Part shown: positions 3,604 to 19,100 of the stretch, piece after piece
Numbering within the stretch: the first letter of the stretch is position 1
How the letters are laid out: every line of letters begins with the position of its first letter
Assembly: GCA_041660925.1 (NCBI GenBank)
Contig: JBAZVI010000002.1
Span: forward strand, 19,906-83,905
Length of the DNA stretch: 64,000 nucleotides
Reading direction: 5' to 3'
Source of the DNA: Elusimicrobiota bacterium
GTDB lineage: Bacteria > Elusimicrobiota > Elusimicrobia > UBA1565
Program-made: the position numbers and the translations under genes
Notes under the pieces: model-generated
Told to the model about the DNA's origin: nothing
Database searches by the model: none
What the model saw: only the letters and a program-made list of their open reading frames with translations

Positions 3604-3614
3604 GGGCGGAGTCT

Positions 3615-3765: not shown

Positions 3766-5718
3766 TCAGGCGAGAGGAAGACGGAACCAGAAGCGGGTGC
3801 CGCGGCCGGGGCTGTCGAAGCCGATGCTCCCTCCGTGGGCTTCGACGATGCCCTTGACGATGTAGAGGCCGAGTCCGGCGCCCTGCAGGCGGCGGGTCGC
3901 CTCGTCGCCGGCGCGGAAGAAGCGCTGGAAGATGCGGCCGCGCGCGGCCTCCGGGATGCCGGGGCCCTCGTCGGCGACCGAGCACTCGAGCTCATCGTCC
4001 CTGCGGCGGCCGGCGATGAGCACGCGACCGCCTCTGGGCGAGTACTTGAGCGCGTTCCCGACGAGGTTGAGGAGGACGCGCTGGATCCCGTCGGCGTCGA
4101 CGGAGGCCTTCGGCAGGCCGCTCTCGAAGTCGAGCTCGACGCGGACCCCCGAGGGGTGCCCGGCGAAGGTCTCGGCGACGCGCGCGGCGAGCTCGGCGAG
4201 GTCGGCCGGCGCCCGCTCCAGCCGGGCGCCGCCGGACTCGAGGCGCGAGACGTCCAGGAAATCGGTGAGGAGGCGCGCGAGACGGGCCGACTCTCGGGCG
4301 ATGACCTCGAGCTGCTTCCCGCGCTCCTCCCGGGTCATCTTCTCTCCGTACTCGAGCAGGGTCTCGGAGAAGCCGCGGATGGAGGTCAGAGGACCGCGCA
4401 GCTCGTGGCTGACGACGTTGACGAGCTCGGTCTTGAGGCGCTCGAGCTCCTGGCGGCGGCGCAGGTCGCGCACGATCAGGAGCAGCGCGAACGGGCGGTC
4501 CTTCTCGTCGTCGATGCGCGTCATCGTGAGCTCGACGGGGACGAGCTCTCCGTCGGCCCGCAGGTAGAGGGTCTCGTGGTCGCGCAGGGTCCCGCGCTCG
4601 AGGGCCCTGGCCGCGGCCTTGCGGTGTTCCACGCGGCGGTCGGCGGGGACGAGCAGCTCCTCGAGCGGCTGTCGGAGCGTCCTCTCGGCCGCGTGCCCGA
4701 AGAACTCGGCGGCGGTACGGCTCCAGAGGGTGATCCGGCCTTCGAGGTCCATGAGGATGACGGGGTCGGCCGACTGGTCGAGCATCGCGGCGAGGGTGCG
4801 TTCGCGGCGCAGCTCGCCTTCGAGGACGAGGGCGTTGTAGAGGAGGCGTGCGACCTCCTCGAGGGCGTGGGAGGCCGCGTCGGTCCTGACGCCGGCGGAG
4901 CGCGGGAAGCCGACGACGACGATCCCGGCGAGATGGGAGTCAGCGCCGGCCGCCGCCGCGGGCATGGCGAAGAGGCCGATCTCCTCGCGCGTGAGGGCGG
5001 CGGGCTTGCGCTCGCGGCGGACCTGCTCGATGAGCGCGCGCTCCGCCCCAGCGGCCTCCTCGGTCCGGAAGCGCGCGTCGCCCATGCGGTGCAGGGCCTG
5101 GAGGGACGAACCCTCGATGCGGTGCACGCCGAAGTACTTGGCGCCCGTCAGGGCCAGGACGTTGTGCCCGACCGCGCCGAGGGAGGCCTCGAGCGACTCC
5201 TTCGCGAAGAGGCCGAGCGCGAAATGGTTGAGGAGGACGAGCTTCTGGTAGCGCTCGGCGAGAGCGTTCTCGGGCGCGCCGCCGCCGGCCGGGGCCGCGG
5301 CGGCCTCCAGGGCCCCTCCCGCGTGCAGGTGCAGCCGGTTCCCCCCCGCATCGACCGCTTCGCGCAGGGCCCGGGCGGCGCGCTCGCAGAGGTCGCGGGG
5401 GTCCCCGCCCGCGGCGAGGCCGAGGCTCACGGGGAAGCGGAACTCCTCTCGCAGGCGGCGCAGCAGCTCCGCGGCGCGCGCGCGCGCGTCCTCCGCGCGC
5501 AGGCTCAGCGCGAGGCCCCCCTCGAAAGGCCCGGCGAGCTCCCCCTCTGAGAGGAGCGCGTGGAGGGAGAGCTCGAGGCGGCCGAGGAGGCGGCGCGCGG
5601 TCGGCTCTCCGCGCGTTCGCCGGACCGTCTCGAGTTCGTCGACGGCGAGGGCGAGGACGGCGCCTCCGCGGCGCTCGGCCTCGGCGCGGAAGGCGGCTTC
5701 GTCGAGGGCGACGCTCAT
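3766..5718 (-). CDS. multidomain sensor histidine kinase (N-terminal sensor region, GAF-like, PAS-like, HisKA, HATPase_c)
   Basis: Longest ORF 3766..6150 has an Arg/Pro-rich junk N-terminus; trimmed to ATG at 5716-5718 (MSVALDE...), which overlaps capA stop as ATGA. C-terminus has H-box VSHELRGPLTSI and HATPase motifs LLNLVGNALKYS, DEGPGIP, GAGLGL. Confidence 0.8.
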   Translation of the reverse strand: MSVALDEAAFRAEAERRGGAVLALAVDELETVRRTRGEPTARRLLGRLELSLHALLSEGELAGPFEGGLALSLRAEDARARAAELLRRLREEFRFPVSLGLAAGGDPRDLCERAARALREAVDAGGNRLHLHAGGALEAAAAPAGGGAPENALAERYQKLVLLNHFALGLFAKESLEASLGAVGHNVLALTGAKYFGVHRIEGSSLQALHRMGDARFRTEEAAGAERALIEQVRRERKPAALTREEIGLFAMPAAAAGADSHLAGIVVVGFPRSAGVRTDAASHALEEVARLLYNALVLEGELRRERTLAAMLDQSADPVILMDLEGRITLWSRTAAEFFGHAAERTLRQPLEELLVPADRRVEHRKAAARALERGTLRDHETLYLRADGELVPVELTMTRIDDEKDRPFALLLIVRDLRRRQELERLKTELVNVVSHELRGPLTSIRGFSETLLEYGEKMTREERGKQLEVIARESARLARLLTDFLDVSRLESGGARLERAPADLAELAARVAETFAGHPSGVRVELDFESGLPKASVDADGIQRVLLNLVGNALKYSPRGGRVLIAGRRRDDELECSVADEGPGIPEAARGRIFQRFFRAGDEATRRLQGAGLGLYIVKGIVEAHGGSIGFDSPGRGTRFWFRLPLA

Positions 5719-6905
5719 CGCGGGTCCGCCAGGCGGAAGAGCTCGGGATGGGCGCTCAGGGTCCCGTCGCGGTCGAGCGCCGCGCGGACGATGTCCGCGG
5801 AGTCGGGGGCCGGGCGCAGGCGGCCGTCGGACCAGGTGTCGGTCGGCACGAACTCCACGCCGAGGACGCCGCGGCGTCCTATGCGGATGCGCGCGAGCGC
5901 GCTCCAGCGCGTGACCGGGGTCGGGGAGACGAAGAGACCGTTGCCGATGCTGTGGAGGATGGGGCGGCCTTTGTAGAGTTCGACCGCCTGAAGGACGTGC
6001 GGGTGGTGTCCGATCACGGCGTCCGCGCCGGCGTCGACCGCGAGGCGGCCGAAGGCGCGCTGGATCTCGTTGGGGTCTTCCGCCTTCTCCGTCCCTCCGT
6101 GGAAGGAGACGAGGAGGACGTCGCAGGAGGATTTCGCGAGCCGGATCCATTCGGGCACGCGCGCGTCGCCCGAATACGCGACGCCGGGGCGCTCGCGCCG
6201 GGCCCAGGCCTCTTCGGGGTGCGTGCTCGTGAAGGCGAGCAGGCCGACGCGCAGTCCGCCGCGCTCGAAGAAGACCGGGCGCACGGCCTCGCCGAGGTCG
6301 CGCCCGGCGCCCACCCGGCGGAAGCCGCCCTCGTCGAGGAGGCGCAGGGTGTCGAGGAAGGCCTCGGGCCCGTAGTCCATGACGTGATTGTTGGCCAGGT
6401 TGAGGACCGTGAATCCCGTCGCGCGCAGGATGGCGATGTTCTCGGGCGGGGCGCGGAAGGTGAAGGTCTTCCCCCGCGTCGGCGCTCCCCGCCGGGAGAC
6501 GGAGGTCTCGAGGTTCCCGAAGAGGACGTCGCCCTCGAGCCAGCGCCGGACGGCCGAGGCCGGGGCCGAGGGGCCGTTCTCCGCAAAGGCCCGGCCCTCC
6601 GGGCCATCGAGGCGGATGTCCCCCATCGCTACAAAAATCATCTCCGGCTCCGGCGTCGGAGCCGGAGATGGGGTGTTGGGAACGGTGACTGTCGGGGTGG
6701 AGATGACGGCGGGCGCCGAGGCGGAGGAGAGGTCGACGGAGGCTGTCGGCTCCGCGGCCTGCGCGGCGGGCGTCAGCCCAAGGAGGATAGAGGTCAGGAG
6801 GATGACACTACTGGAGGTACGCGGCGGTTCGAGCAACGACGCCGGAGGCCGAAAGCCGCGTTTGCAGGCGCAGCGGGGTTTCTGGATGGCTTCTAGAAGG
6901 ACCAT
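5715..6905 (-). CDS. CapA/PgsA-family metallophosphatase-like protein (poly-gamma-glutamate synthesis family), signal peptide
   Basis: Trimmed from ORF 5715..8063 to ATG at 6903-6905 (MVLLEAIQ...); hydrophobic N-terminus, Pro/Thr/Ser linker, then CapA-like core (VLNLANNHVMDYG, GHHPHVLQ). Confidence 0.75.
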   Translation of the reverse strand: MVLLEAIQKPRCACKRGFRPPASLLEPPRTSSSVILLTSILLGLTPAAQAAEPTASVDLSSASAPAVISTPTVTVPNTPSPAPTPEPEMIFVAMGDIRLDGPEGRAFAENGPSAPASAVRRWLEGDVLFGNLETSVSRRGAPTRGKTFTFRAPPENIAILRATGFTVLNLANNHVMDYGPEAFLDTLRLLDEGGFRRVGAGRDLGEAVRPVFFERGGLRVGLLAFTSTHPEEAWARRERPGVAYSGDARVPEWIRLAKSSCDVLLVSFHGGTEKAEDPNEIQRAFGRLAVDAGADAVIGHHPHVLQAVELYKGRPILHSIGNGLFVSPTPVTRWSALARIRIGRRGVLGVEFVPTDTWSDGRLRPAPDSADIVRAALDRDGTLSAHPELFRLADPR

Positions 6906-7657
6906 GTGCGCAGCTCGTCCATCATGGGAAGATAGGTGTGGTCGATGTTCAGCGGGGTCACGGAGACGAAGCCGTCGGCGACCGCGCGTACGTCGGTGCC
7001 CGGTTCCAGGACGCTGGAGACGTACGGGCCGGAGAGCCAGAAATAGCGCTTCCCGTTGGGGTCGCGCCGGACCTCGACCTTCTTCGAGTAGAGGCGGCGT
7101 CCGAGCCGCGCGGTCCGGAAACCCTTCAGCCGCGCCTTCGGCAGGGCGGGGACGTTCACGTTGAGGCAGACGCCCGGAGGCAGGCCGCGCGCGAGGATGC
7201 GGGCCGCGACCTTGCCTGCGGCTTCGGCCGCGGGGATGAAGTCGCGGGAGCGGCGCGAGCGGCCCCGGCTGACGGAGAGGGCGGGCGCGCCGAGGAGGAC
7301 CCCTTCGAGGGCGCCGGCGACCGTGCCCGAGTAGACGACGTCGGAGCCCAGGTTGTAGCCGTCGTTGATCCCGGAGACGACGAGGTCGGCCCGGCCCTTG
7401 AGGACCTCGAGGAGCCCCAGGCGCGCGCAGTCCGCCGGGGTCCCGTCGACGGCGTAGAGGCCGGCGCGCACCTCGCGCATGCGCAGCGGATGGCGCAGGG
7501 TGAGGCAGTGGCTCACCGCGGAGCGTTCCCCCTCCGGGACCACCGCGACGACCTCTCCCAATCCGGAGAGCACCGCGATGAGGGGAAGCAGGCCGGCGCC
7601 CGGGAGCCCGTCGTCGTTGACGACGAGGATCCGAGGCCGTCGGCAGGGACGCTTCAC
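6893..7657 (-). CDS. surE: 5'/3'-nucleotidase SurE
   Basis: 254 aa; RILVVNDDG motif near N-terminus; start is GTG at 7655-7657 overlapping murG stop (GTGA). Confidence 0.85.
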   Translation of the reverse strand: MKRPCRRPRILVVNDDGLPGAGLLPLIAVLSGLGEVVAVVPEGERSAVSHCLTLRHPLRMREVRAGLYAVDGTPADCARLGLLEVLKGRADLVVSGINDGYNLGSDVVYSGTVAGALEGVLLGAPALSVSRGRSRRSRDFIPAAEAAGKVAARILARGLPPGVCLNVNVPALPKARLKGFRTARLGRRLYSKKVEVRRDPNGKRYFWLSGPYVSSVLEPGTDVRAVADGFVSVTPLNIDHTYLPMMDELRTWSF

Positions 7658-8769
7658 GCGTTCCTCCGCGGGTGCGCGCGCACGACCTTTTCGACGAGGT
7701 CGGCGAGGGCCGAAGCGCTCTCCTTCGCGGAGGGCAGCCCGATGCGGGCGTAGGCGTCCGCCATCCGCGCGCGCAGGGCCGCGTCGGAGAAAAGCTCGCG
7801 CAGGCGGTCGGCGAGGGCCTCCGGCGGGAAGGGTTCCTTGAGCATCCGCGCGGCGCCTGCCGTCTCGAGCACGCGGGCGTTGCGCTCCTGGTGCCCGGCG
7901 GCGGCGCTGGGGTAGGGGACGAGGACCGCCGCGCGGCGCGCGGCCGCCAGTTCGGCCAGGGTGGCGGCGCCGGCTCGGCAGAGCACGACGTCGGCGGCCG
8001 CGTACGCGGCCGGCATATCCTCGAGATAGGGAAGGACGCGCGCTTCGGGGAGTCCGGCTTCACGATAGAGGCGCGACGTCTCTTCCGCCTCCGCGCGCCC
8101 GGCGAGGTGGAGGACTTGCGGACGGACGCCCTCGGCGCGCAGGCGCGCGAGCGCCGCGGGGGCGGCCCGGTTCACCGCGCGGGCTCCCTGGGAGCCGCCG
8201 AAGACCAGGAGGGTCGCCCGTTCGGGCTCGAGGGAGAGCCGGCGGCGGGCCTCGGTCGAGTCGGGGAGTTTCGAGAAGCCGGAGCGCACCGGCGTGCCGG
8301 TGAGCGTCGCTCCGGGCGCGGCGCCCGGGTCGCAGAGCGGGAGGCCGAGGGCGAGGGCGTCGGCGAAGGGGAGGATCGCGCGGACCGCCAGGCCGAGCAC
8401 GGCGTTGGATTCATGGAGCACGACCGGGATCCCGCACGAGCGCGCGGCGGCCCCGAGCGGGAAGGTCAGGTAGCCCCCCATCCCGACGGCCGCGGAGGGC
8501 CGCCAGGCGCGGATCAGCGCGCGCGCCGCCAGGACGCTGCGTCCCAGGCGCCAGGGGAACGCGAGGAGCTCGGTGGAGACCTTGCGGGGCAGGCCGCGCA
8601 GGTCGAGCTCCGCGTACGGGAGGTCGTCGGCCTCGAGGCGCGCGGCCGCGGGGTCGTCGCTGCGCAACACGAAGAGGACTTCGTGGCCGCGCTCGCGCAG
8701 ACGGCGTCCGAGCGCGTAGCCGGGGTAGAAATGGCCGCCGGTCCCCCCGCAGGCGATGACGATGCGCAT
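7654..8769 (-). CDS. murG: undecaprenyldiphospho-muramoylpentapeptide beta-N-acetylglucosaminyltransferase
   Basis: 371 aa; N-terminal MRIVIACGGTGGHFYPG signature of MurG. Confidence 0.9.
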   Translation of the reverse strand: MRIVIACGGTGGHFYPGYALGRRLRERGHEVLFVLRSDDPAAARLEADDLPYAELDLRGLPRKVSTELLAFPWRLGRSVLAARALIRAWRPSAAVGMGGYLTFPLGAAARSCGIPVVLHESNAVLGLAVRAILPFADALALGLPLCDPGAAPGATLTGTPVRSGFSKLPDSTEARRRLSLEPERATLLVFGGSQGARAVNRAAPAALARLRAEGVRPQVLHLAGRAEAEETSRLYREAGLPEARVLPYLEDMPAAYAAADVVLCRAGAATLAELAAARRAAVLVPYPSAAAGHQERNARVLETAGAARMLKEPFPPEALADRLRELFSDAALRARMADAYARIGLPSAKESASALADLVEKVVRAHPRRNA

Positions 8770-8819
8770 GGCCCAATCATGCCAGTTTTTGGCCGGGATT
8801 TCCCAGCGGGAAATCCCGC

Positions 8820-9932
8820 TCAGCGCGTCGGGCTCGCGCCCTGGCGGGAGATGTTGAGCAGGATCCCCACCGCACAGAGGCTCACGAGCAGGGAGGAGCC
8901 GCCGTAGGAGAAGAAGGGCAGGGGGATGCCCTTGGTGGGGATGAGGCCGATGGACATCGCGACGTTGAAGAAGGCCTGCAGGACCAGCAGGAGCGTGAGG
9001 CCGGAGGCGAGGAGGCTGCCGAAGAGGTCGGGGGCGTGCCGCGCGGCCCGGAGCCCGCGCATGAGCAGGGAGGCGAAGAGGGCGAGGACCGCGAGGGCGC
9101 CGACGAAGCCGAGCTCTTCACAGACGATGGGGAAGATGAAGTCGGTGTGCGGGGCGGGGAGGTACATGAGCTTGAGCTGGGAGGCGCCGAGGCCCTTCCC
9201 GAACCAGCCCCCCGAGCCGACCGCGATGAGCGACTGCGCGAGCTGGTAGCCCGCGCCCTGGGCCTGCTCGAAGGGGTCGAGGAAGGTGAGCAGGCGCTTG
9301 CGGCGGTAGGGCTTGCGCAGGAGCTCGACGATGACGATCGGGACGGCCGCCAGGATGGCGCCGAGCACGTAGGAGACGCGGGCGCCGCCGATGAACAGGG
9401 TGAGGATGACCGTCGCGAAGATGAGCGCCGGCGTGCCGAGGTCGGGCTCCAGGCCCATGAGGACCAGCGGGACGGCGACCACCCCGAGCGGGACGAGGAG
9501 GCCGATCAGCGGGGAGCCGATGCGGCTCTTCTTGCGGTCGACGAAATCCGCGATGAAGAGGATGACCGAGAGCTTCGCGAACTCGGCCGGCTGGAGCCCG
9601 AAGGGCCCGAGGCGGATCCAGCGGCGCACCCCCGCCACCGGGGGCATGAAGAGCACCGCCGCCAGCAGGAGGACGCTCACGAAGAAGGCCGGCCAGACCC
9701 AGCCGCGCAGGCGGTGGTAGTCGGTGCGGGCGAAGAAGGCCATGAGCATGAGGCCGACGGCGGCGAAGAGGCCCTGGCGCTTGAGGAAGAAGAGGGAGTC
9801 GTGCATCTGCTGGTCGGCGAGGATCGCGCTCGCGGACCACATCATCATGAGACCGAAGCCGAGCAGGAGGAGGGCGGCCAGGAGCAGGCCGTAGTCGGAC
9901 TGCGCGTCGCGGCGGCGCGCGCGGGGGATCAT
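8820..9932 (-). CDS. ftsW: SEDS-family peptidoglycan glycosyltransferase FtsW
   Basis: 370 aa polytopic membrane protein with FtsW/RodA-like motifs (IGSGGWFGKGLG, FIFPIVCEELG, PLPFFSYGGSS); placed between murD and murG. Confidence 0.9.
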   Translation of the reverse strand: MIPRARRRDAQSDYGLLLAALLLLGFGLMMMWSASAILADQQMHDSLFFLKRQGLFAAVGLMLMAFFARTDYHRLRGWVWPAFFVSVLLLAAVLFMPPVAGVRRWIRLGPFGLQPAEFAKLSVILFIADFVDRKKSRIGSPLIGLLVPLGVVAVPLVLMGLEPDLGTPALIFATVILTLFIGGARVSYVLGAILAAVPIVIVELLRKPYRRKRLLTFLDPFEQAQGAGYQLAQSLIAVGSGGWFGKGLGASQLKLMYLPAPHTDFIFPIVCEELGFVGALAVLALFASLLMRGLRAARHAPDLFGSLLASGLTLLLVLQAFFNVAMSIGLIPTKGIPLPFFSYGGSSLLVSLCAVGILLNISRQGASPTR

Positions 9933-11413: not shown

Positions 11414-11414
11414 C

Positions 11415-12500
11415 TCAGCGCACCTTCAGCGAGGCCAGGGCGGCCAGCATGAGCACGATGCAGGTGATCCAGAAGCGGACGGTGACCTTGGACTCCGCGA
11501 CCCCGCCGAGCTCGAAGTGGTGGTGGATGGGGGCCATGCGGAAGACGCGCTTGCCGCCCCGGAGCTTGTAGGAGCCCATCTGGAGGATGACGGAGAGGGT
11601 CTCGACGACGAAGACCCCGCCGACGACCGGGAGGATGAGCTCCTGCTTGACGCAGAGCGCGATGGTGCCGATGACGCCTCCGAGGAAGAGCGAGGAGGTG
11701 TCGCCCATGAAGACCTCGGCCGGGTAGGCGTTGAACCAGAGGAAGCCGAGGCAGGCGCCGATGAGGGCGGCGCAGAAGACGGCGATCTCTCCGGCGTTCT
11801 CGACGTGGATGATCCGCAGGTAGTCGGCGAACTTGGCGTTGCCGGCCGTGTAGGCGAACACGCCGTAGGCGATGGCGCAGAAGATGATCGAGCCGGCCGC
11901 CAGCCCGTCGAGTCCGTCGGTGAGGTTCACCGCGTTGGAGGAGCCGACGATGATCAGTACGCCGAGCACGAAGTAGAGCGAGCCCAGCGCGACGTAGAGT
12001 CCCTTGGTGTAGGGGACGAGCAGGGAGTCGACGTAGTCTCCGTTGGGCGGGCGCACCGCGAGCCAGGCGACGACGACGACCGCCGCGGCGATCTGGACGG
12101 CGAACTTGAGCCGCGAGGGCGCCCCGCGCGGGTCCTTGCGCACGAGCTTGAGGTAGTCGTCCCAGAAGCCGACCGCCCCCAGCGCGGCGGTGACGAAGAG
12201 GAGTATCCAGGTGAAGCGGACGTCGGGCCGCATCCAGAGCAGGGTCGAGAGGGTCAGCGCGAGGAGGATGAGCAGGCCTCCCATCGTCGGCGTGCCGTGC
12301 TTGGCGAGGTGGCTCTTGGGACCGTCGGTGCGCTGCTGCTGGCCGATCTTCTTCTCGCGCAGCAGGGCGATGAGGGAGGGCCCGAAGAGCAGGGAGATCC
12401 CGAGGGCGGTCAGCATGGCGCCGCCGCTGCGGAAGGTGATGTAGCGGAAGACGTTGAGCGGGCCCCAGGACTCACGCAGCAGATGGAGATAATAGAGCAT
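11415..12500 (-). CDS. mraY: phospho-N-acetylmuramoyl-pentapeptide transferase
   Basis: 361 aa polytopic membrane protein with MraY motifs (GTPTMGG, NAVNLTDGLDGLA, HHHFE). Confidence 0.9.
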   Translation of the reverse strand: MLYYLHLLRESWGPLNVFRYITFRSGGAMLTALGISLLFGPSLIALLREKKIGQQQRTDGPKSHLAKHGTPTMGGLLILLALTLSTLLWMRPDVRFTWILLFVTAALGAVGFWDDYLKLVRKDPRGAPSRLKFAVQIAAAVVVVAWLAVRPPNGDYVDSLLVPYTKGLYVALGSLYFVLGVLIIVGSSNAVNLTDGLDGLAAGSIIFCAIAYGVFAYTAGNAKFADYLRIIHVENAGEIAVFCAALIGACLGFLWFNAYPAEVFMGDTSSLFLGGVIGTIALCVKQELILPVVGGVFVVETLSVILQMGSYKLRGGKRVFRMAPIHHHFELGGVAESKVTVRFWITCIVLMLAALASLKVR

Positions 12501-13885
12501 CAGAGCGCCTCCGCGAGGGCCTCCAGGCGCATGGCGCGCGAGGCCTTGAAGTAGACGCTGACGGCGGGTGCGAGCAGGCCGCGCAGGGCGTCTCGCAGCC
12601 CGTCGGCGTCGGGAGCGTGGAGGATCTCGAAGCGGGCGCCCTTCTCCCGCAGCCCCTCGGCGGTCTCGGCGCTCAGGGGCCCGGCGAGGAGGACGGCGGA
12701 GAGCGGGAGGCCGGCGAGCCAGCGGCCCAGTTCGCGGTGGAAGCGCGGCGACTCCGGGCCCAGCTCGCGCATGTCGCCGAGCACGAGGACCCGCCGGCCG
12801 GGCGGGGCGGTCTCCAGGAAGGTCTCCACCCCGGCCCGCATCGAGTCCGGGTTGGCGTTGTAGGCGTCGACGAGCAGCCAGGCTCCGCTCGCATGCGCGC
12901 GCTGCGCGAAGCGCAGCGGCGCCGGGCGGAAATCCGCGAGGCCGGCGGCGATCTCCGCGGCGGAGAAGCCGAGCGCGTGGGCGGCGGCGGCCGCCGCCGC
13001 CGCGTCGAGGCGGTGGGGACGCCCGATCGGCCCCCCCGGACGGGCGCGGGCCTCTCCGTCGGGCAGGCGCAGGGCGATCTCCCCGGCCTCGGCCGGGAGC
13101 GCGCGCACGCGCGCCTCCGCGCCGAAGCCGAAGGTGACCGCGCGCGCGCCGAGGCCCGGCAGCAGGCGGCAGAGATAGGGGTCGTCGGCGTTGAGCACCG
13201 CGGGGGCGTCGGCCGGCAGCGCTTCGAAGAGCTCCGCCTTGGTCTTGAACACGCGCTCGAGACTGCCGAAGTACTCGAGGTGGGCCGCGCCGATGTTCGT
13301 GAGGACGCCGAGCGTCGGTCGGGCCGCCCGGCAGAGGTACGCGATGTCCCCCGGGCGGGAGGCCCCCATCTCGAAGACGGCGAAGGCGTGCTCGGCGCGC
13401 AGGCCCAGCACGGTCATGGGCAGGCCGACCTCGTTGTTGAAGTTGAGCTCGGTCGCGCAGACCTTCCCGCGGCGGGCGAGGACGGCGCGGAGCATCTCCT
13501 TGGTCGTGGTCTTGCCGTTGGTGCCGGTGAGCCCCACGACGGGGAGGGTGAAGCGGGAGCGGTGCTCCGCCGCGGCGTCGGAGAGGGCCTTCAGCGTGTC
13601 GGGGACCTCGAGCACGCAGGGCGGCTGGAGGGCGGGCAGCGGCGCGCCGGCGCGCACGATCCAGCCGCCGGCGGCGCGAGCGGCGTGCTCGTTGAGGAAG
13701 GCGTGGGCGTCGAAGCGCTCCCCCTTGAGCGCGAGGAAGGCCTCTCCGGGGCGCAGGAGCCGGCTGTCGGTGCAGAGGGAGCGCACGGGGGCGTCGGGGC
13801 GGCCGCGCAGGAGCCGTCCGCCGGCGGCGCGCGCGAAGTCTCCCCAGGTCAGCGTCAGTTCCATCCTCTCCTCTGCCGTCAGCAT
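12500..13885 (-). CDS. murF: UDP-N-acetylmuramoyl-tripeptide--D-alanyl-D-alanine ligase
   Basis: 461 aa; Mur ligase P-loop GLTGTNGKTTTKEM; position between murE and mraY. Confidence 0.9.
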   Translation of the reverse strand: MLTAEERMELTLTWGDFARAAGGRLLRGRPDAPVRSLCTDSRLLRPGEAFLALKGERFDAHAFLNEHAARAAGGWIVRAGAPLPALQPPCVLEVPDTLKALSDAAAEHRSRFTLPVVGLTGTNGKTTTKEMLRAVLARRGKVCATELNFNNEVGLPMTVLGLRAEHAFAVFEMGASRPGDIAYLCRAARPTLGVLTNIGAAHLEYFGSLERVFKTKAELFEALPADAPAVLNADDPYLCRLLPGLGARAVTFGFGAEARVRALPAEAGEIALRLPDGEARARPGGPIGRPHRLDAAAAAAAAHALGFSAAEIAAGLADFRPAPLRFAQRAHASGAWLLVDAYNANPDSMRAGVETFLETAPPGRRVLVLGDMRELGPESPRFHRELGRWLAGLPLSAVLLAGPLSAETAEGLREKGARFEILHAPDADGLRDALRGLLAPAVSVYFKASRAMRLEALAEAL

Positions 13886-15396
13886 CGGCCCAGGTCCTTC
13901 AGGGCCTCGCGGGCGACCTCGCGGTCGTCGAAGCGCACGGTGCGCTCGCGCAGGATCTGATGGTCCTCGTGCCCCTTCCCGGCGATGAGGACGAGGTCCT
14001 CGGGCTGGGCCAGGCGCACGGCCTCGCGGATCGCTTCCCGTCGGTCGGGGACGATTCTATAATTTTGCCGGCCGGCGCGCTTGAGCCCCTCCTCGACCGC
14101 GGCGAGGATCGCGAGCGGGTCCTCCCCGCGAGGGTTGTCGCTCGTCGCGAGGACGACGTCGCTGCCCGCGGCCGCGGCCTCTCCCATCGGCGCGCGCTTC
14201 CCGGGGTCGCGGTCTCCGCCGCAGCCGAAGACGGTCACGATGCGGCGGTGCGGCAGCGCGCGCACGGTCTCGAGCGCCGAGGCGAGGGCCTCGGCGGTAT
14301 GGGCGAAATCGACGAGCACGGCGAACTCCTGGCCCGCCTCGACGGGCTCCAGCCGGCCCGGGACGCATTCCAGGGCCGCGAGCCCTTCCAGGACGCCCTG
14401 TTCCGGGAGGCCCAGCGCCCACGCCGCCGCCGCCGCCGCCAGGGCGTTGGAGACGTTGTGGCGCCCGAGCAGGCGCAGGGTGACCGCCGCCTCCGCGCCC
14501 GTGCGCCGGAGGCGGAAGGTCGTGCCGCGGCGGCCGAGCACCACGCCCTCGGCGCGGAGGTCGGCGGCCTCGTGGAAGCCGTAGCTGACGAGGCGGGCTC
14601 CCTCGGCCGCGCGGGCGAAGCGCGCGAAGGCCGGGTCGTCGCGGTTGACCACGGCCGCGCGCTCGCGCTTCGAGGAGGAGGCCCGGTCGAGGAGCTCGAA
14701 GAGCCGGAGCTTGGCCTCGAGGTAGGCCTCGTGCGTCTTGTGGAAGTCGAGGTGGTCGCGCTGGAGGTTGGTGAGGACCGCGGCGTCGAACTCGACGTCC
14801 TCGACGCGCTTCGTCGAGAGCGCGTGAGAGGAGACCTCCATCGCGACGTGCGTGGCTCCGCCCTCGCGCATGCGCGCGAGCAGGCGCAGGAGGTCGAGGC
14901 TGTAGGGCGTGGTGTTCGCCGCCTTCTCGAGGACCCGGTGGCGCAGGCGGTGGGCGATGGTCCCCACGAGGCCGGGGACCTTCCCGCAGCGGCTGAACAC
15001 GGATTCGAGGAACCACGCCGTCGTCGTCTTCCCGTTGGTCCCGGTGATCCCGACGACGGAGAGCCCCGCGCTCGGGTCGCCGAAGAAGTTGTTCGCCCCG
15101 CGGCTCATGGCCTCGAACGCGTCGGGGACCTGCACCCAGGCGGCGCCCCCTCCTCCCGGACGCGCGAGCGTCATCGGCGGCGGGGGCGGCGCGAGCTCGC
15201 TGACCACGGCCGCCGCGCCGCGCTCGACGGCCTCGCGGGCATGCCGGTTCCCGTCGGTGCGGGCGCCGGGCAGCGCGAAGAAGACGGTGCCGGGCAGGAC
15301 GCGCCGGGAGTCGTGGGCGACGTCGGAGGCCTCGCGGTCTCCCGCGGCGCCGAGCGGCGGGTGCTGGACGCCGCGCAGGACCTCCGCGAGCCTCAT
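13879..15396 (-). CDS. murE: UDP-N-acetylmuramoyl-L-alanyl-D-glutamate--2,6-diaminopimelate ligase
   Basis: 505 aa; GITGTNGKTTT P-loop and MurE-like C-terminus; ATGA overlap with ftsI. Confidence 0.9.
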   Translation of the reverse strand: MRLAEVLRGVQHPPLGAAGDREASDVAHDSRRVLPGTVFFALPGARTDGNRHAREAVERGAAAVVSELAPPPPPMTLARPGGGGAAWVQVPDAFEAMSRGANNFFGDPSAGLSVVGITGTNGKTTTAWFLESVFSRCGKVPGLVGTIAHRLRHRVLEKAANTTPYSLDLLRLLARMREGGATHVAMEVSSHALSTKRVEDVEFDAAVLTNLQRDHLDFHKTHEAYLEAKLRLFELLDRASSSKRERAAVVNRDDPAFARFARAAEGARLVSYGFHEAADLRAEGVVLGRRGTTFRLRRTGAEAAVTLRLLGRHNVSNALAAAAAAWALGLPEQGVLEGLAALECVPGRLEPVEAGQEFAVLVDFAHTAEALASALETVRALPHRRIVTVFGCGGDRDPGKRAPMGEAAAAGSDVVLATSDNPRGEDPLAILAAVEEGLKRAGRQNYRIVPDRREAIREAVRLAQPEDLVLIAGKGHEDHQILRERTVRFDDREVAREALKDLGRC

Positions 15397-17168
15397 GCGC
15401 CGCTCGGGCGGCCGAGGGCGGGCGAGGCGGCCTTCCCGCCGGGGGCCTGGACGCGGCCGGGCGCCAGGGGGCGCGCGGGGAGCGCGGGGCGCTGGGGCGC
15501 GGTGCGCCAGGCGTTGGGTCCGCTCGGGATGCGCAGCGGCAGCGACACGTCGGGCGGGATCCCGCGATGGGCGAGGACCTCGCGCGCGACGCGCGAGAAG
15601 ACGGGGCCCGCGACCTCGGAGCCGTAGTAGCCGACGCGCGGGCTGTCGATGACGACGAGGACGGTGAGCTTCGGGTCCCGGGCCGGCAGGTAGCCGATGA
15701 AGGACGAGACGTAGTCGTTGGGGGAGTAGCGGCCGGTCGCGGGGTCGATCTTCTGGGCGGTCCCGGTCTTGCCCGCGGTCCGGAAGCCGGGGACCTGCGC
15801 CGACTGTCCGGTCCCGCGCAGGACGACGCCCTCGAGCATGTCGCGCACGGCCGCGACCGCCTCCGGCGACGCCACCTGACGCAGGCGCACGGGCCCGGGA
15901 GCCTCGCGCTCTCCCAGCGCGAGCAGGAGGCGGGGCGCGAGGAGCTCCCCGTCGTTGGCGATGGCGGAATAGGCGCCGGCGAGCTGGAGCGGCGTCACCG
16001 CGACGCCCTGGCCGAAGCCGGCGTTGGCCAGACGCACCGGGGTGAACTCCTTGGGCTCGGGCAGAAGCCCCGCGCTCTCGCCGGGCAGCGGCAGGCCGGT
16101 CTTGTAGCCGAATCCGAAGAGGCGGCAGAAGCGGTGGAAGCTCCCGGCGCCGACGCGCAGGGTGACCTTGGCCGTCCCGATGTTCGACGAGCGCTCCAGG
16201 ACCTGGGAGAGGGTGATGCGGGTCTCGGGTTCGTGGTCCTTGATGGTGACGCCTTTGGCGACCTCCCAGCGGCCTCCCTCGCAGTCGACGATGTCGTCGG
16301 GGCGGAAGAGACCCTTGTCGAGCGCGGCGGCGAGCGCGACGAGCTTGAAGGTCGAGCCGGGCTCGTAGACGTCCTGCACCGCGTGGTTCTTGAGCGCGTC
16401 CGGGGGCCAGGAGGCGAGGGCGAGCAGGTCGCCTGTGCGCGGATCCTGCACCACGACGGTGCCGCGCTTGGCGCGGCGCGCGACGACCGCTTCGCGGACG
16501 GCCGACTCCGCGAAGTGCTGGACGCTGCGGTCGATGCTCAGGCGCAGGTCCGGCGCTCGCGCGGTGTCGGGCGGTCCCTCCTGGACGATCGCGTTGCCCG
16601 CGCGGTCCTTCGTCGTCCGGACGCGGTAGGAGCGCCCGCTGAGCTCGCGGTCGTAGGCGAGCTCGAGGCCGGAGAGTCCCTTCTCGTCGAGGTCCACGGA
16701 GCCGATGACCGCGCGGAGCATCTCCCCGTTGGGATAGACGCGCTGCTCGTCGGCGACGAAGCCGACCCAGGGCAGGCGGAAGGCGCGCAGCCGGGCGGCC
16801 TCCTCCGGCAGCATCTTGCGCTTGAGCCAGAGGAAGCGCCGGCCGGGACGCAGCTTCCCGAGCAGGGGGCCGGCGTCGACGCCGGCCGCCTTGGCCGCCG
16901 CGCGCAGGGCGCGCGCGGGCTCCTCGACGCCGGTGAAGTCGCAGAAGCTGGAGGAGACGGGGACGGACTCCGCGAGGACGCGGCCTTCCCGGTCGAGGAT
17001 GCGGCCGCGGGGGACGAGGATCAGCTCGCTGCCGAGCGTCTCGTCGGCGGCTTTCAGCTCGAGCTGCTGATGGCGGACGACCTGCAGCCAGGCCAGGCGC
17101 AGGGCGAGCGGAAGGAGTGCGAGGATGCAGAGGGTTCGGACGACGGCCAGGCGGCTGCGAGTTTCCAA
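15393..17168 (-). CDS. ftsI: peptidoglycan D,D-transpeptidase FtsI (class B PBP)
   Basis: 591 aa; N-terminal membrane anchor, transpeptidase motifs STFK and KTGTA. Confidence 0.9.
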   Translation of the reverse strand: METRSRLAVVRTLCILALLPLALRLAWLQVVRHQQLELKAADETLGSELILVPRGRILDREGRVLAESVPVSSSFCDFTGVEEPARALRAAAKAAGVDAGPLLGKLRPGRRFLWLKRKMLPEEAARLRAFRLPWVGFVADEQRVYPNGEMLRAVIGSVDLDEKGLSGLELAYDRELSGRSYRVRTTKDRAGNAIVQEGPPDTARAPDLRLSIDRSVQHFAESAVREAVVARRAKRGTVVVQDPRTGDLLALASWPPDALKNHAVQDVYEPGSTFKLVALAAALDKGLFRPDDIVDCEGGRWEVAKGVTIKDHEPETRITLSQVLERSSNIGTAKVTLRVGAGSFHRFCRLFGFGYKTGLPLPGESAGLLPEPKEFTPVRLANAGFGQGVAVTPLQLAGAYSAIANDGELLAPRLLLALGEREAPGPVRLRQVASPEAVAAVRDMLEGVVLRGTGQSAQVPGFRTAGKTGTAQKIDPATGRYSPNDYVSSFIGYLPARDPKLTVLVVIDSPRVGYYGSEVAGPVFSRVAREVLAHRGIPPDVSLPLRIPSGPNAWRTAPQRPALPARPLAPGRVQAPGGKAASPALGRPSGA

Positions 17169-17175
17169 CCGCGCC

Positions 17176-17487
17176 TCAATGGATCAGGAAGCTGAGAAGA
17201 CCCTGCCCTTCTCCCCCCCGGGCGAGCGCGCGTCCGAGGAAAATCTGACTCTCCGGCGTCGGCGGCGTCATGCGCAGGCGGGTCTCCGCCTCGCGGGCGA
17301 TCCGCTCCGGGGCCCGCAGGCGCGCGAGCTGCATGCGCAGATGGACGACCGTCTGCGACTGCAGGCGCAGCTCCTTGCGGGCCCGGCCCACCTCATAGCC
17401 CACCCGCACGGCCTGTACCTGCTCCCAGAGGAACAGGAAGGCCAGTGCGGTGAGGGCTGCGAGGACGACGACGCGGATGCGGTTCAT
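17176..17487 (-). CDS. ftsL: cell division protein FtsL-like (small bitopic protein)
   Basis: 103 aa; single N-terminal TM helix then coiled-coil-like region; canonical position immediately upstream of ftsI. Confidence 0.6.
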   Translation of the reverse strand: MNRIRVVVLAALTALAFLFLWEQVQAVRVGYEVGRARKELRLQSQTVVHLRMQLARLRAPERIAREAETRLRMTPPTPESQIFLGRALARGGEGQGLLSFLIH

Positions 17488-17535
17488 TCAAAATGCGGCG
17501 GGCACCCCGCCGAGTAGGTGCCCACCAGATCGGTT

Positions 17536-17706
17536 TCAGTGCCTCTGGGGCCGTCCCTTGAGGAAGACGCGCTGCCAGATATAGCCGGCGCCGGAGGCCG
17601 GGCCGACGGGCATCAGCCGGATGATCTGTTCGCGGGCCGGGAGCATGCGCGCCGCGCCCTCGCCCCCCTCGCTTCCGCCGGTCCCGCCGAAGAAGAACTC
17701 TTTCAT
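17536..17706 (-). CDS. hypothetical small Gly-rich protein (56 aa)
   Basis: Tail of ORF 17536..18177; ATG at 17704-17706 preceded by GGGGGGAG Shine-Dalgarno-like run at optimal spacing; lies between rsmH and ftsL. Confidence 0.3.
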   Translation of the reverse strand: MKEFFFGGTGGSEGGEGAARMLPAREQIIRLMPVGPASGAGYIWQRVFLKGRPQRH

Positions 17707-17720
17707 GATCTCCCCCCTGT

Positions 17721-18623
17721 TCAGAGTTTCTCGACGACGCGGAGCTTCGCGCTCCGCGCCCGCGGATTTCGAGCGATCTCTTCCGGCTGGGGTGAGACCG
17801 CGCCTTCCGTCACCCATCGGCAGCTGCCCGAGGCCACGTACGACTTGAAAACGTTCTTCGCGATGCGGTCTTCCAGGGAGTGGAAGGAGATCGCGGCGAC
17901 CCGTCCGCCGGAGCGCAGCATCCCCAGGACGTCCTCGAGGCCGCGGGTCAGGTTCTCGAGCTCGCCGTTGACCGCGATGCGCAGCGCCTGGAAGGTCCGG
18001 GTCGCCGGGTGGATGCGTCCGGTGCGGGGCAGGCGGGACTCGAGAAGGACGGCGAGGTCGCCGGTCGTCTCGAAGGGCTTCGCCGCGCGCGCGTCGACGA
18101 CCCAGCGCGCGATGCGCGCGGCTTCCCGCTCCTCCCCGTATTCCCTCAGAAGCAGCTCGATCTGCTCGGCCGGCCACTCGTTGACGATGCGGGCGGCGGT
18201 GAGCGGATTCGACGGATCGAGCCTCATGTCGAGCGGTCCTTCCCGCTGGATCGCGAAGCCGCGCTCCGCCTTGTCGAACTGGAGGGAGGAAACCCCGAGA
18301 TCGAACAAGGCACCGGCCAGCGGGAAGAACCCCTCGTTCTGGAGGATGCGGACGAGGTCGCGGAAATTGCCCTGGACGAGGCGGCAGCGCCCCGCGTAGG
18401 AGCGCAGGCGCTCCTCGGCGAGCGCGAGGGCCTCGGGGTCGAGGTCGATGCCGAGCAGGCGGCCCTGCGGAAGAAGGCCGCGCAGCACCGCCTCCGCGTG
18501 GCCCCCGAGCCCGAGGGTCGCGTCGAGGTAGAGGCCTTCGCGGTCGGTGACGAGCGCGGAGACCGTCTCTTCGAGGAGGACCGGTGCGTGAGTGTATTCT
18601 TCGTTCATGGTCGCGGTGCTCAT
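17721..18623 (-). CDS. rsmH: 16S rRNA (cytosine1402-N4)-methyltransferase RsmH/MraW
   Basis: Trimmed from ORF 17721..18944 to ATG at 18621-18623 (MSTATMNEEYTHAPVLLEE...); RsmH-like core with HxPVLL start and SAM-binding region; alternative ATG at 18606-18608. Confidence 0.85.
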   Translation of the reverse strand: MSTATMNEEYTHAPVLLEETVSALVTDREGLYLDATLGLGGHAEAVLRGLLPQGRLLGIDLDPEALALAEERLRSYAGRCRLVQGNFRDLVRILQNEGFFPLAGALFDLGVSSLQFDKAERGFAIQREGPLDMRLDPSNPLTAARIVNEWPAEQIELLLREYGEEREAARIARWVVDARAAKPFETTGDLAVLLESRLPRTGRIHPATRTFQALRIAVNGELENLTRGLEDVLGMLRSGGRVAAISFHSLEDRIAKNVFKSYVASGSCRWVTEGAVSPQPEEIARNPRARSAKLRVVEKL

Positions 18624-19075
18624 CAGAGATCGAGGTCCTTGGCGAGCTCCGTGAAGGACGGCGCGGCGTGCTTGCGGGAGTATTCCTGCCAGCGCGCGCG
18701 GTCCCAGATCTCGGCCTTGTTCCCCGCCCCGGCCACCACCACGTCCTTCTTGAGCCCTGCGAAATCCTTGAGGTTCTGCGGGACGAGCACGCGGCCCTGC
18801 TCGTCCACCGGCGCCTCGACCGCGCTGCTGAAGATGAAGCGCTTCGCGGCGCGGGCCTTCTTCTTGTCCTTGATGTCCTGCGTATGCGTCTTCGCGTCGT
18901 CCAGGAACGCCTCCCATTGGGACGGGAGGAACAGCCAGAGGCATTCGTCCTGACCGATCGCCAGCACGAAGTGCGAGCCCTTCTCCGCGATGAGCGCTTC
19001 GCGGTAGCGCGGCGGTACGACGACCCGGTTCTTCGGGTCGAGAGAGTAGTCGTACTGTCCGATGGTGACGGTCAT
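18623..19075 (-). CDS. mraZ: transcriptional regulator MraZ
   Basis: Trimmed from GTG-initiated ORF 18623..19117 to ATG at 19073-19075 (MTVTIGQYDYSLDPKNRVVVPPRYR...), giving a typical 150-aa two-repeat MraZ; the longer ORF would run through the operator repeats. Confidence 0.8.
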   Translation of the reverse strand: MTVTIGQYDYSLDPKNRVVVPPRYREALIAEKGSHFVLAIGQDECLWLFLPSQWEAFLDDAKTHTQDIKDKKKARAAKRFIFSSAVEAPVDEQGRVLVPQNLKDFAGLKKDVVVAGAGNKAEIWDRARWQEYSRKHAAPSFTELAKDLDL

Positions 19076-19100
19076 TTTCTTTTTTCTGCGGGGTCCCAGT

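What the first reader, a model, noticed from the sequence alone, without database searches (positions are those of the whole stretch)
3766..19075. dcw cluster stops at murG and is translationally chained to surE, capA and a sensor kinase
From mraZ to the sensor kinase, successive genes mostly overlap or abut (ATGA/GTGA overlaps at ftsI/murE, ftsW/murD, murG/surE, capA/kinase; 1-nt gap mraY/murD), suggesting one long transcript. After murG, where murC, murB, ddl, ftsQ, ftsA and ftsZ are commonly found, the window has surE, a CapA-family protein and a GAF/PAS histidine kinase instead. This may reflect a lineage with a reduced or relocated division gene set, and links cell-wall synthesis to a signalling kinase.
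Basis: partly seen in the sequence, partly recalled or inferred. Interest (0 to 1): 0.5.

Follow-up and report, generated by a model that had tools for sequence, protein, structure and literature searches.

The report
Elusimicrobial cell-wall operon ending in surE
This is the cell-wall and division (dcw) operon of an uncultured Elusimicrobiota bacterium: in this whole lineage it stops at murG and runs straight into surE, which is a modest gene-order variant, but it also holds an apparently undescribed small gene plus RNA hairpin just before ftsL.

Summary
GAF was not detected.

- **Source:** an Elusimicrobiota metagenome-assembled genome.
- **murG-surE link:** murG is followed by surE in 17 related contigs and in 0 of 77 loci from other lineages. 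It is a clade-wide trait, not an artefact.
- **Weaker links:** capA follows surE in 6 of 9 relatives, and the kinase in only 2 of 9. "Cell wall linked to a signalling kinase" is therefore a recent, local feature.
- **Packing:** overlaps are genome-wide here (8 of 11 unrelated junctions), so overlap alone says little about function.
- **Transcription signals:** one conserved MraZ-box promoter precedes mraZ, and a terminator-like hairpin follows the kinase.
- **Missing genes:** murC, ddl, ftsQ, ftsA and ftsZ are absent from the window and from ±10 kb in relatives. A published FtsZ tree includes Elusimicrobiota, so relocation is likelier than loss; I could not test this genome.
- **Unexpected:** the rsmH-ftsL gap holds a conserved ~60-aa gene, followed by 1-9 tandem hairpins with an invariant CUCGGCG loop and strongly covarying stems. 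They occur only at this locus and match no Rfam family.

The parts
19148..19176 (-). Pmra-type promoter, TTGACA-17 nt-TATACT
   Evidence: It is the only sigma-70-like hit in window 1500-19600. The same CTTGACA-17-TATACT is conserved upstream of mraZ in 18 of 18 loci examined (the window plus 17 relatives).
19103..19137 (-). Four direct repeats at exact 10-nt spacing (GTGGG, GTGGC, GTGGG, GTAGG): MraZ-box-like operator in the 5' leader
   Evidence: Read from the sequence. GTGGG repeats follow the promoter in the window and all 17 relatives examined. The assignment to MraZ rests on the known E. coli MraZ operator, not on a test here.
18623..19075 (-). mraZ
   Evidence: Pfam MraZ, E=8e-32. The ATG at 19075 matches the start used in relatives.
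17721..18623 (-). rsmH (mraW), 16S rRNA m4C1402 methyltransferase
   Evidence: Pfam Methyltransf_5, E=1e-95. TGATG junction with mraZ.
17536..17706 (-). Conserved 56-aa small ORF, ending GYIWQRVFLKGRPQRH, with a GGGGGGAG ribosome-binding site
   Evidence: Orthologues sit between rsmH and ftsL in about 42 loci. The family has 226 clusters, all about 60 aa, named only from Elusimicrobia, with no Pfam or NCBIfam match. The motif region varies like codons: entropy is 1.11 at position 3 against 0.46 and 0.21 at positions 1 and 2.
17496..17527 (-). RNA hairpin with a 12-bp stem and loop ACUCGGCG, 8 nt after the small ORF's stop and 8 nt before the ftsL ATG
   Evidence: Covariance model R1 scores it 49.5 bits, E=1.6e-10, and it is the only hit in the 64-kb window. 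The fold is confirmed. Relatives carry 1-9 tandem copies at the same place. All 12 pairs covary. It was also flagged as terminator-like.
17176..17487 (-). ftsL
   Evidence: NCBIfam FtsL models match below threshold (E=6e-8). Position and alignment with relatives agree.
15393..17168 (-). ftsI (class B PBP)
   Evidence: Pfam Transpeptidase and PBP_dimer.
13879..15396 (-). murE
   Evidence: Three Pfam Mur ligase domains. ATGA overlap with ftsI.
12500..13885 (-). murF
   Evidence: Pfam Mur_ligase_M and Mur_ligase_C.
11415..12500 (-). mraY
   Evidence: Pfam Glycos_transf_4 and MraY_sig1.
9929..11413 (-). murD (the TTG start gives a 48-aa Lys/Arg-rich N-terminal extension; the start is uncertain)
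   Evidence: TIGR01087 scores 373 bits against a cut-off of 212.
8820..9932 (-). ftsW
   Evidence: Pfam FTSW_RODA_SPOVE, E=2e-110. ATGA overlap with murD.
8794..8818 (-). 11-bp hairpin in the 50-nt ftsW-murG spacer, with no U tract
   Evidence: Fold at -26.8 kcal/mol for the 61-nt spacer segment folded, z=-2.8. It is not conserved: relatives have 0-10 nt at this junction, or an insertion of about 2.5 kb.
7654..8769 (-). murG, the last dcw gene of the cluster
   Evidence: TIGR01133 scores 270 bits against a cut-off of 250.
6893..7657 (-). surE (5'/3'-nucleotidase); its GTG start overlaps the murG stop (GTGA)
   Evidence: NF001490 scores 265 bits against a cut-off of 233. The NDDG and GINDGYN motifs are present. 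It follows murG in 17 related contigs and in 0 of 77 other loci.
5715..6905 (-). CapA/PGA_cap-family protein with an N-terminal hydrophobic signal/anchor and a Pro/Thr-rich linker
   Evidence: Pfam PGA_cap, E=2e-64. No capB or capC lies nearby. It is present after surE in 6 of 9 relatives.
3766..5718 (-). Soluble orphan histidine kinase: degenerate GGDEF-like N-terminus, PAS, HisKA, HATPase_c. ATGA overlap with capA.
   Evidence: Pfam. Below every NCBIfam equivalog cut-off. Present only in the window, L003 and L006.
3619..3648 (-). Terminator-like hairpin plus UUUUU between the kinase and crp; probable 3' end of the unit
   Evidence: Pattern scan. The 142-nt kinase-crp segment folded contains a 13-bp stem, z=-3.2.

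Best explanation
The region is the Elusimicrobiota version of the proximal dcw (mra) operon.

**Shown**
- A conserved sigma-70-type promoter with GTGGG repeats at 10-nt spacing precedes mraZ.
- The gene order is mraZ-rsmH-(60-aa small ORF)-(hairpin)-ftsL-ftsI-murE-murF-mraY-murD-ftsW-murG, in the canonical order apart from the two inserted elements.
- The distal half (murC, murB, ddl, ftsQ, ftsA, ftsZ) is not attached.
- surE instead starts inside the murG stop codon.
- This murG-surE junction is fixed across the clade.
- A CapA-family exported protein usually follows surE.
- An orphan PAS histidine kinase was inserted between capA and crp only in the sub-lineage of this window.

**Inferred**
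- The 15.5 kb from 19176 to about 3620 is transcribed mainly from the MraZ-controlled promoter and ends at the hairpin plus U tract after the kinase.
- surE is translationally coupled to murG.
- The distal division genes lie elsewhere in the genome rather than being lost.

**Tentative**
- SurE degrades UMP in E. coli. Its fixation behind mraY...murG may serve to remove the UMP (and UDP-derived) by-products of lipid I and lipid II synthesis.
- Alternatively it is simply a frozen accident of the break that split the cluster.
- The hairpin, or hairpin array, between the small ORF and ftsL is a selected RNA structure. It probably tunes how much of the transcript, or of ftsL translation, continues past rsmH.
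For: **Identities and order:**

**Junctions:**

**Promoter and terminator**
- It is the only sigma-70-like promoter in the region.
- It is conserved, with GTGGG repeats, in 18 of 18 loci.

**murG-surE adjacency**
- Found in L003-L008, L087-L089, L093, L103, L116-L119, L130 and L135, a closed genome.
- ATGA or GTGA overlap at the junction in at least five of these loci.
- Absent from 77 loci of other lineages.

**Downstream genes:** capA and kinase distribution.

**Distal genes and SurE function**
- No distal dcw gene in the window or in the flanks.
- FtsZ is present in the phylum (PMC9871819).
- SurE (UmpG) degrades UMP (PMC4470420).
- murC, murB and ddlB are often outside the cluster in other bacteria (PMC8871954).

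**Hairpin as a real RNA structure:**
Against: - No expression data exist, so co-transcription is inferred from sequence only.
- Promoters of other sigma factors, or weak ones, would be missed by the scan.
- The ftsW-murG spacer has a strong hairpin. In relative L003 it carries a 2.5-kb insertion, so murG-surE can evidently be expressed apart from the upstream genes.
- Tight packing is genome-wide.
- A perfect 14-bp hairpin plus AUUUUUG lies inside capA and could end many transcripts before the kinase.
- The UMP-removal rationale is untested, and E. coli SurE is a broad-specificity enzyme.
- The location of ftsZ and the other distal genes in this genome was not seen.
Confidence: 0.75

Rival explanations
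1. Pure genome compaction. surE, capA and the kinase sit behind murG by historical accident after the cluster broke. They are expressed at least partly from their own weak promoters, and their products have nothing to do with cell-wall synthesis.
For: - 8 of 11 junctions between unrelated neighbouring genes are equally tight.
- capA and the kinase come and go among relatives.
- L089 has dagK between murG and surE, and L008 has a gap of about 400 nt.
- In L003 an insertion upstream of murG shows that the distal part can stand alone.
Against: - murG-surE has stayed adjacent in 17 of 17 contigs, down to about 50% SurE identity. Meanwhile everything downstream of surE, and in L089 even the genes upstream of ftsW, were rearranged.
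- The 4-nt overlap with an internal Shine-Dalgarno sequence is retained in several lineages.
Confidence: 0.35
2. The lineage has lost the distal division genes and divides without FtsZ, as Planctomycetota and Chlamydiota do. The truncated cluster would be the footprint of that loss.
For: No murC, ddl, ftsQ, ftsA or ftsZ in the 64-kb window or within 10 kb of the cluster in about 17 relatives.
Against: - Elusimicrobiota FtsZ sequences are part of a published FtsZ tree (PMC9871819).
- ftsL, ftsI and ftsW are retained and conserved here.
- murC, murB and ddlB are commonly found outside the cluster in many bacteria (PMC8871954).
- murC and ddl are needed to make the substrates of the MurD, MurE and MurF enzymes encoded here.
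Confidence: 0.05
3. The murG/surE junction is an assembly or binning chimera of this contig.
For: - The window changes composition after about 46 kb (GC 0.70 falling to 0.60), so heterogeneity exists on the contig.
Against: - The same junction appears in independent assemblies from JGI, NCBI, ENA and Logan. These include two contigs with a 100% identical SurE and a closed genome.
- Composition is uniform across the junction.
Confidence: 0.01

Closest known systems
Canonical dcw/mra cluster (E. coli mraZ...ftsZ; locus L086)
   Same: Same promoter-proximal logic: a sigma-70-type Pmra promoter, GTGGG repeats, then mraZ-rsmH. Same order ftsL-ftsI-murE-murF-mraY-murD-ftsW-murG. Many overlapping stops and starts.
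   Different: No murC-ddlB-ftsQ-ftsA-ftsZ after murG; surE-capA-kinase follow instead. An extra 60-aa gene and an RNA hairpin sit between rsmH and ftsL.
Split or partial dcw clusters in other phyla (Leonard et al. 2022, PMC8871954)
   Same: murC, murB and ddlB are often found outside the main cluster. Sub-clusters are reported in several phyla, including Elusimicrobia (for murA).
   Different: The fixed, overlapping junction of murG with surE is, as far as I could find, not described. In 77 loci of other lineages surE was never beside murG.
SurE / UmpG 5'(3')-nucleotidase of E. coli (Proudfoot 2004; Reaves 2013, PMC4470420)
   Same: Equivalog-level match, with the DD and GINxGxN motifs. The family has UMP-degrading activity in E. 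coli.
   Different: In E. coli surE lies with pcm and nlpD-rpoS and is tied to stationary-phase survival. Here it is the terminal, overlapping gene of the cell-wall operon. Its activity was not tested.
CapA/PgsA of poly-gamma-glutamate synthesis
   Same: PGA_cap domain with an N-terminal membrane or signal segment.
   Different: No CapB/PgsB or CapC/PgsC partner is nearby. It is best treated as a PGA_cap-family exported metallophosphoesterase-like protein of unknown substrate.
mraW RNA motif (Rfam, Actinobacteria); EAR element of the B. subtilis eps operon; lambda N-boxB; CsrB-type multi-hairpin RNAs (from my own knowledge)
   Same: - Structured RNA inside or at the head of a long cell-envelope operon (mraW motif, EAR).
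- A short arginine-rich peptide encoded next to a small hairpin with a sequence-specific loop (N-boxB).
- Tandem hairpins displaying one constant loop motif (CsrB).
   Different: No Rfam family matches. The position is different (rsmH-ftsL gap) and so is the loop (C-UCGGC-G). The arrays are in cis within an mRNA. No binding or antitermination has been tested.

Membership tests
dcw (mra) cluster | mraZ-rsmH at the 5' end behind a promoter with MraZ-box (GTGGG) repeats | tested here: met
dcw (mra) cluster | Conserved order ftsL-ftsI-murE-murF-mraY-murD-ftsW-murG | tested here: met
dcw (mra) cluster | Distal half murC-(murB)-ddl-ftsQ-ftsA-ftsZ contiguous with murG (full-length form) | tested here: not met
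   surE follows murG. tblastn with E. coli MurC, DdlB, FtsQ, FtsA and FtsZ finds no orthologue in the window or in relatives' flanks. murB was not searched for.
SurE 5'/3'-nucleotidase | Equivalog-level profile match and the N-terminal DD metal-binding motif | tested here: met
   NF001490 265 bits against cut-off 233; TIGR00087 211 against 135. ILVVNDDG and GINDGYN are in the translation.
SurE 5'/3'-nucleotidase | Nucleotidase activity (UMP or other NMPs) | not testable with these tools
   Needs enzymology.
CapA/PgsA poly-gamma-glutamate system | PGA_cap domain | tested here: met
   E=2e-64.
CapA/PgsA poly-gamma-glutamate system | Adjacent CapB/PgsB ligase and CapC/PgsC | tested here: not met
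   The neighbours are surE and a histidine kinase. Relatives' neighbours also lack them.
Two-component sensor histidine kinase | HisKA phospho-acceptor and HATPase_c domains | tested here: met
Two-component sensor histidine kinase | Cognate response regulator in the same operon | tested here: not met
   The next gene is a Crp/Fnr-type regulator 162 nt downstream, beyond a terminator-like site.
WalK/VicK cell-wall-metabolism kinase | Equivalog-level match | tested here: not met
   206 bits against cut-off 725.
   No GAF hit at E<=10 on residues 1-313.
Known RNA families (Rfam 15, including the mraW motif) | Match at or near the gathering score | tested here: not met
   No hit in the window. Only far-sub-threshold miRNA-like noise on a 9-copy array.
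Intrinsic terminator | GC-rich hairpin directly followed by a U tract | tested here: inconclusive
   The window copy and the last copy of many arrays are followed by AUUU(U). Internal copies are not.
REP/BIME-type dispersed intergenic hairpins | Many copies dispersed over the genome | tested here: not met
   One copy in 64 kb. In the relatives' flanks outside the rsmH-ftsL gap the model finds only five weak hits (E 0.012-0.6), and none of 381 CTCGGCG 7-mers there sits in a stem of >=8 bp. Whole genomes were not scanned.

The most novel reading that the evidence does not exclude
The rsmH-ftsL gap holds a previously undescribed regulatory module specific to Elusimicrobiota dcw operons. It consists of a translated ~60-aa protein with an invariant aromatic and arginine-rich C-terminus (YVWRRVFLKGR). 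It is followed within 4-12 nt by one to nine tandem RNA hairpins that all present the same C-UCGGC-G loop on freely covarying stems. These end just before the ftsL ribosome-binding site. In the strongest reading, the small protein or another factor recognises the loops and sets how much transcription or translation proceeds from mraZ-rsmH into ftsL...murG-surE. That would be a lineage-specific checkpoint on division and wall synthesis, working like N-boxB or EAR-type antitermination or like a structured translational gate.
Probability: 0.4. Interest if true: 0.7.

Novelty: new variant of a known kind. Interest (0 to 1): 0.42.

Why it matters
- **Gene order:** the result gives a clean, easily scored gene-order marker (murG overlapping surE) for a large uncultured phylum. 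It shows that the kinase link is incidental. This matters mainly for annotation and for studies of dcw evolution.
- **SurE:** the surE fixation suggests a testable idea, that removal of the UMP by-product is coupled to lipid I/II synthesis.
- **New module:** the more valuable outcome is the small-ORF and hairpin-array module directly upstream of ftsL. Control of ftsL is a known division checkpoint in model bacteria. This is a compact element with strong comparative support, and it could be tested with simple reporters and binding assays.

Tried and rejected
**Locating ftsZ, ftsA, murC, murB and ddl in this organism: not possible**
- The exact-sequence contig look-up returned only two short contigs, not the 556-kb source contig.
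- Protein searches list only the best 120 hits, so an E. coli FtsZ query could not reach Elusimicrobia.
- Papers on Elusimicrobium and on the dcw survey were not held. Other papers were silent on the question.

**Ideas tested and dropped**
- GAF domain in the kinase: not found.
- Rfam match for the hairpin: none.
- Conserved target complementary to the loop (CGCCGAG on the sense strand): no consistent site near ftsL. The recurrent hits around +950 to +1040 lie within ftsI coding sequence.
- Fold search for the small protein: not attempted, because the AlphaFold model is weak (pLDDT 62, pTM 0.32).
- MraZ binding to the hairpin stems (some stems contain GGTGGG): rejected, because many stems lack it.
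- Dispersed REP-like repeat: rejected.
- Plain tandem satellite or CRISPR-like array: rejected, because the loops are constant while the stems differ with compensation.
- Antisense-strand structure: rejected, with 80 G-U pairs and 0 A-C pairs.
- Assembly chimera: rejected.
- Complementarity of the loop's GGCGG to 16S rRNA CCGCC (1399-1403, the RsmH target region): noted, but left as a possible coincidence.

Full report
**What the window is.** GC is 0.70-0.76 up to about 46 kb. The SurE protein is 100% identical to one on a 556-kb JGI metagenome contig. Most named relatives among the hits, including all the closest ones, are Elusimicrobia/Elusimicrobiota MAGs. All genes from rnpA (30233) down to hisS (1611) lie on the minus strand. 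The order is rnpA, yidC, jag, mnmE, an MFS transporter, a 267-aa membrane protein, mnmG, rsmG, a 172-aa protein, an MA-type peptidase, the dcw genes, surE, capA, a histidine kinase, crp, hisS and the start of aspS.

**Check of the observation.**
- The junctions are as described: ATGA at ftsI/murE, murD/ftsW and capA/kinase, GTGA at murG/surE, and a 1-nt gap at mraY/murD.
- In addition there are TGATG junctions at mraZ/rsmH and murF/mraY.
- Three places are not tight: rsmH-ftsL (233 nt), ftsW-murG (50 nt, with an 11-bp hairpin) and kinase-crp (162 nt).
- The kinase has PAS, HisKA and HATPase_c domains. No GAF is detectable, and the N-terminus gives only a weak GGDEF-like match.
- E. coli MurC, DdlB, FtsQ, FtsA and FtsZ (locus L086) find no orthologue in the 64 kb. 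The rest of the window holds housekeeping genes and a lower-GC polysaccharide island.

**Is the chain special?** Not in itself. Among the unrelated genes upstream (19.4-30.2 kb) and at hisS/aspS, 8 of 11 same-strand junctions overlap or are <=11 nt apart, and four are ATGA overlaps. Compaction is the habit of this genome.

**Is the truncation at murG a property of the lineage?** Yes.
- Contexts of SurE homologues, three loci from the genome scan, long loci from a metagenome scan with an FtsL alignment and a closed 3.8-Mb genome all show murG followed by surE. That makes 17 contigs.
- The junction is direct in 15 of them. L008 has a gap of about 400 nt, and L089 has a small dagK gene between the two.
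- The stop/start overlap (ATGA or GTGA) recurs in L003, L004, L005, L088 and the window.
- In 77 loci of other lineages from the same scan, surE is never next to murG.
- Downstream of surE the picture is looser. capA follows in 6 of 9 relatives. The kinase follows in 2 of 9 (L003 and L006, the closest relatives).
- crp-hisS-aspS is the older neighbourhood, into which the kinase was inserted. None of the relatives has murC, ddl, ftsQ, ftsA or ftsZ within 10 kb.

**Transcription signals.**
- The only sigma-70-like promoter in 1500-19600 is TTGACA-17-TATACT at 19176-19148. It is followed by four GTGGG-type repeats at exact 10-nt spacing (19137-19103).
- The same promoter and repeats precede mraZ in 18 of 18 loci examined. 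This is the classical MraZ-operator arrangement known from E. coli; the assignment rests on that knowledge, not on a binding test.
- A hairpin plus UUUUU lies between the kinase and crp (3648-3619).
- The sequence is therefore compatible with one 15.5-kb unit. This remains an inference.
- Possible internal punctuation includes the rsmH-ftsL hairpin, the ftsW-murG hairpin, and a perfect 14-bp hairpin plus AUUUUUG inside capA (6670-6639, z=-8.7).

**Lost or relocated division genes?** I could not search the rest of this genome.
- A published FtsZ phylogeny includes Elusimicrobiota sequences (PMC9871819).
- A dcw survey notes that murC, murB and ddlB are often outside the cluster (PMC8871954).
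- MurD, MurE and MurF here need the products of MurC and Ddl.

Relocation is much the likelier reading.

**Why surE?** The protein is a full-length SurE with the metal-binding DD motif. In E. coli, SurE (renamed UmpG) contributes to UMP degradation (PMC4470420; review PMC8475336). MraY releases UMP and MurG releases UDP, which is established biochemistry. A nucleotidase made in step with them could pull these reversible steps forward. This is a hypothesis only. The rival reading is a frozen accident of the break, and I rate it at about one in three.

**Unexpected content of the rsmH-ftsL gap.**

*The small ORF.*
- A 56-aa ORF (17706-17536) with a good ribosome-binding site starts 14 nt after rsmH.
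- Orthologues of 49-67 aa occupy the same place in about 42 loci, with conserved blocks LDTTVxFLxDRxQ and YVWRRVFLKGR.
- A profile search finds 226 clusters. All are about 60 aa, all are unnamed or "hypothetical", the named ones come only from Elusimicrobia, and none has a Pfam domain.
- The motif region varies like codons: entropy is 1.11 at third positions against 0.46 and 0.21, and arginine switches between CGN and AGR codons. Loci were selected for this test with a regular expression on the peptide.
- AlphaFold gives a weak model with a C-terminal beta-hairpin (pLDDT 62).

*The hairpin.*
- Eight nt after the ORF's stop lies a hairpin (17527-17496) with a 12-bp stem and loop ACUCGGCG. It is followed by CAUUUUGA and then the ftsL ATG.
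- Relatives carry 1-9 tandem hairpins at this spot. The stems differ between copies and loci, but the loop is invariant.
- L116 has nine copies at a 38-nt period.

*Evidence that the structure is selected.*
- 100 distinct units were collected. An ungapped alignment of 80 of them was scored for covariation.
- All 12 pairs show compensatory changes. There are 207 doubly changed cells against 47.5 +/- 5.6 in shuffles. The covariation score is 0.72, against 0.20 for shuffles and <=0.18 for shifted registers. Units had been picked for stems of >=8 bp, so the percentage of paired cells is biased, but the compensation is not.
- Stems contain 80 G-U pairs and no A-C pairs, so the structure is on the mRNA strand.

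*Evidence that it is locus-specific.*
- In the gaps, 112 of 139 CTCGGCG 7-mers sit in stems of >=8 bp. Elsewhere in the same loci the figure is 0 of 381. In the other loci plus the window it is 3 of 580, and one of those three is the window's own copy.
- Covariance model R1 gives about 110 sense-strand hits in the gaps. The window has a single hit (49.5 bits), and the closed genome has five copies.
- Nothing scores better than E=0.3 in 1.19 Mb of other lineages.
- No Rfam family matches.
- In 23 of 32 loci the first exact-loop hairpin starts 4-12 nt after the small ORF's stop. In seven of the other nine, a copy with a variant loop (UUCGGCG) fills that place.
- The last copy is usually followed by AUUU(U) and then the ftsL Shine-Dalgarno sequence.

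*Reading.* I read this as a selected cis-acting RNA element tied to translation of the small ORF and to expression of ftsL and the genes behind it. The mechanism is open. Candidates are attenuation, mRNA stabilisation, a translational gate, or loop-specific binding by the small basic protein or another factor.

**Verdict.** The finding is real, but as stated it is a modest, lineage-specific variant of a very well known cluster, and its kinase link is incidental. The region gains interest from the clade-wide murG-surE fusion, and above all from the small-ORF and hairpin module upstream of ftsL, which I could not find described.

Noticed in passing
window 17536-17706 (-): Conserved ~60-aa protein gene between rsmH and ftsL (C-terminus YVWRRVFLKGR). 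The family has 226 clusters, apparently restricted to Elusimicrobiota, with no known domain.
   Followed up: yes
window 17496-17527 (-); arrays in L116 9576-9912, L131 1-222, L124 449-670, L135 10191-10438, L087 224-425: Hairpin with an invariant CUCGGCG loop and strongly covarying stems, present as 1-9 tandem copies only in the rsmH-ftsL gap. It lies on the sense strand and has no Rfam match.
   Followed up: yes
window 19103-19176 (-): Textbook TTGACA-17-TATACT promoter followed by four GTGGG-type repeats at 10-nt spacing. The arrangement is conserved in all 18 loci checked, so MraZ autoregulation seems to be retained in this phylum.
   Followed up: partly
window 6639-6670 (-): Perfect 14-bp hairpin plus AUUUUUG (z=-8.7) inside the predicted capA coding region, in the Pro/Thr-rich linker just before the PGA_cap domain. 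It could be an internal terminator or attenuator, or capA could start at the ATG in its 3' arm and lack the signal segment.
   Followed up: partly
window 8794-8818 (-): 11-bp hairpin GGGAUUUCCC-GCU-GGGAAAUCCC in the 50-nt ftsW-murG spacer. It is not conserved in relatives.
   Followed up: partly
L003 / L090 (Ga0172379_10000386): The closest relative's cluster lacks murE and murD: one Mur ligase lies between ftsI and mraY, and none between mraY and ftsW. It also has an insertion of about 2.5 kb (a DUF4189 protein and a 76-aa ORF) between ftsW and murG.
   Followed up: no
window 9929-11413 (-), N-terminus: With the TTG start 1 nt after mraY, MurD carries a 48-aa Lys/Arg/Ala-rich extension before the MurD-like N domain. 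The true start is uncertain.
   Followed up: no
window about 46000-64000: GC drops from about 0.70 to about 0.60. The genes there are a polysaccharide-type set: GDP-mannose dehydratase, acyltransferase, Polysacc_synt_2, GT2, GT4, cytidylyltransferase and radical SAM/SPASM. This is a possible acquired island.
   Followed up: partly
window about 30233-30518: Gene orientation flips and the GC skew changes sign next to the rnpA-yidC-jag-mnmE-mnmG-rsmG set, which is usually near the origin. No dnaA is seen. The first plus-strand ORF (30518-31726, 402 aa) has no Pfam or NCBIfam hit.
   Followed up: no
L135 (CP096137.1, 2058983-2079171): The closed 3.8-Mb Elusimicrobiota genome shows the same order from jag to surE, but many genes are called in fragments (mnmE, murF, murG). 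This suggests indel errors in that assembly.
   Followed up: no
window 3766-5718 (-), residues 1-130: The kinase N-terminus looks like a degenerate GGDEF domain (E=0.034). It sits just upstream of a cNMP-binding Crp-family regulator.
   Followed up: partly
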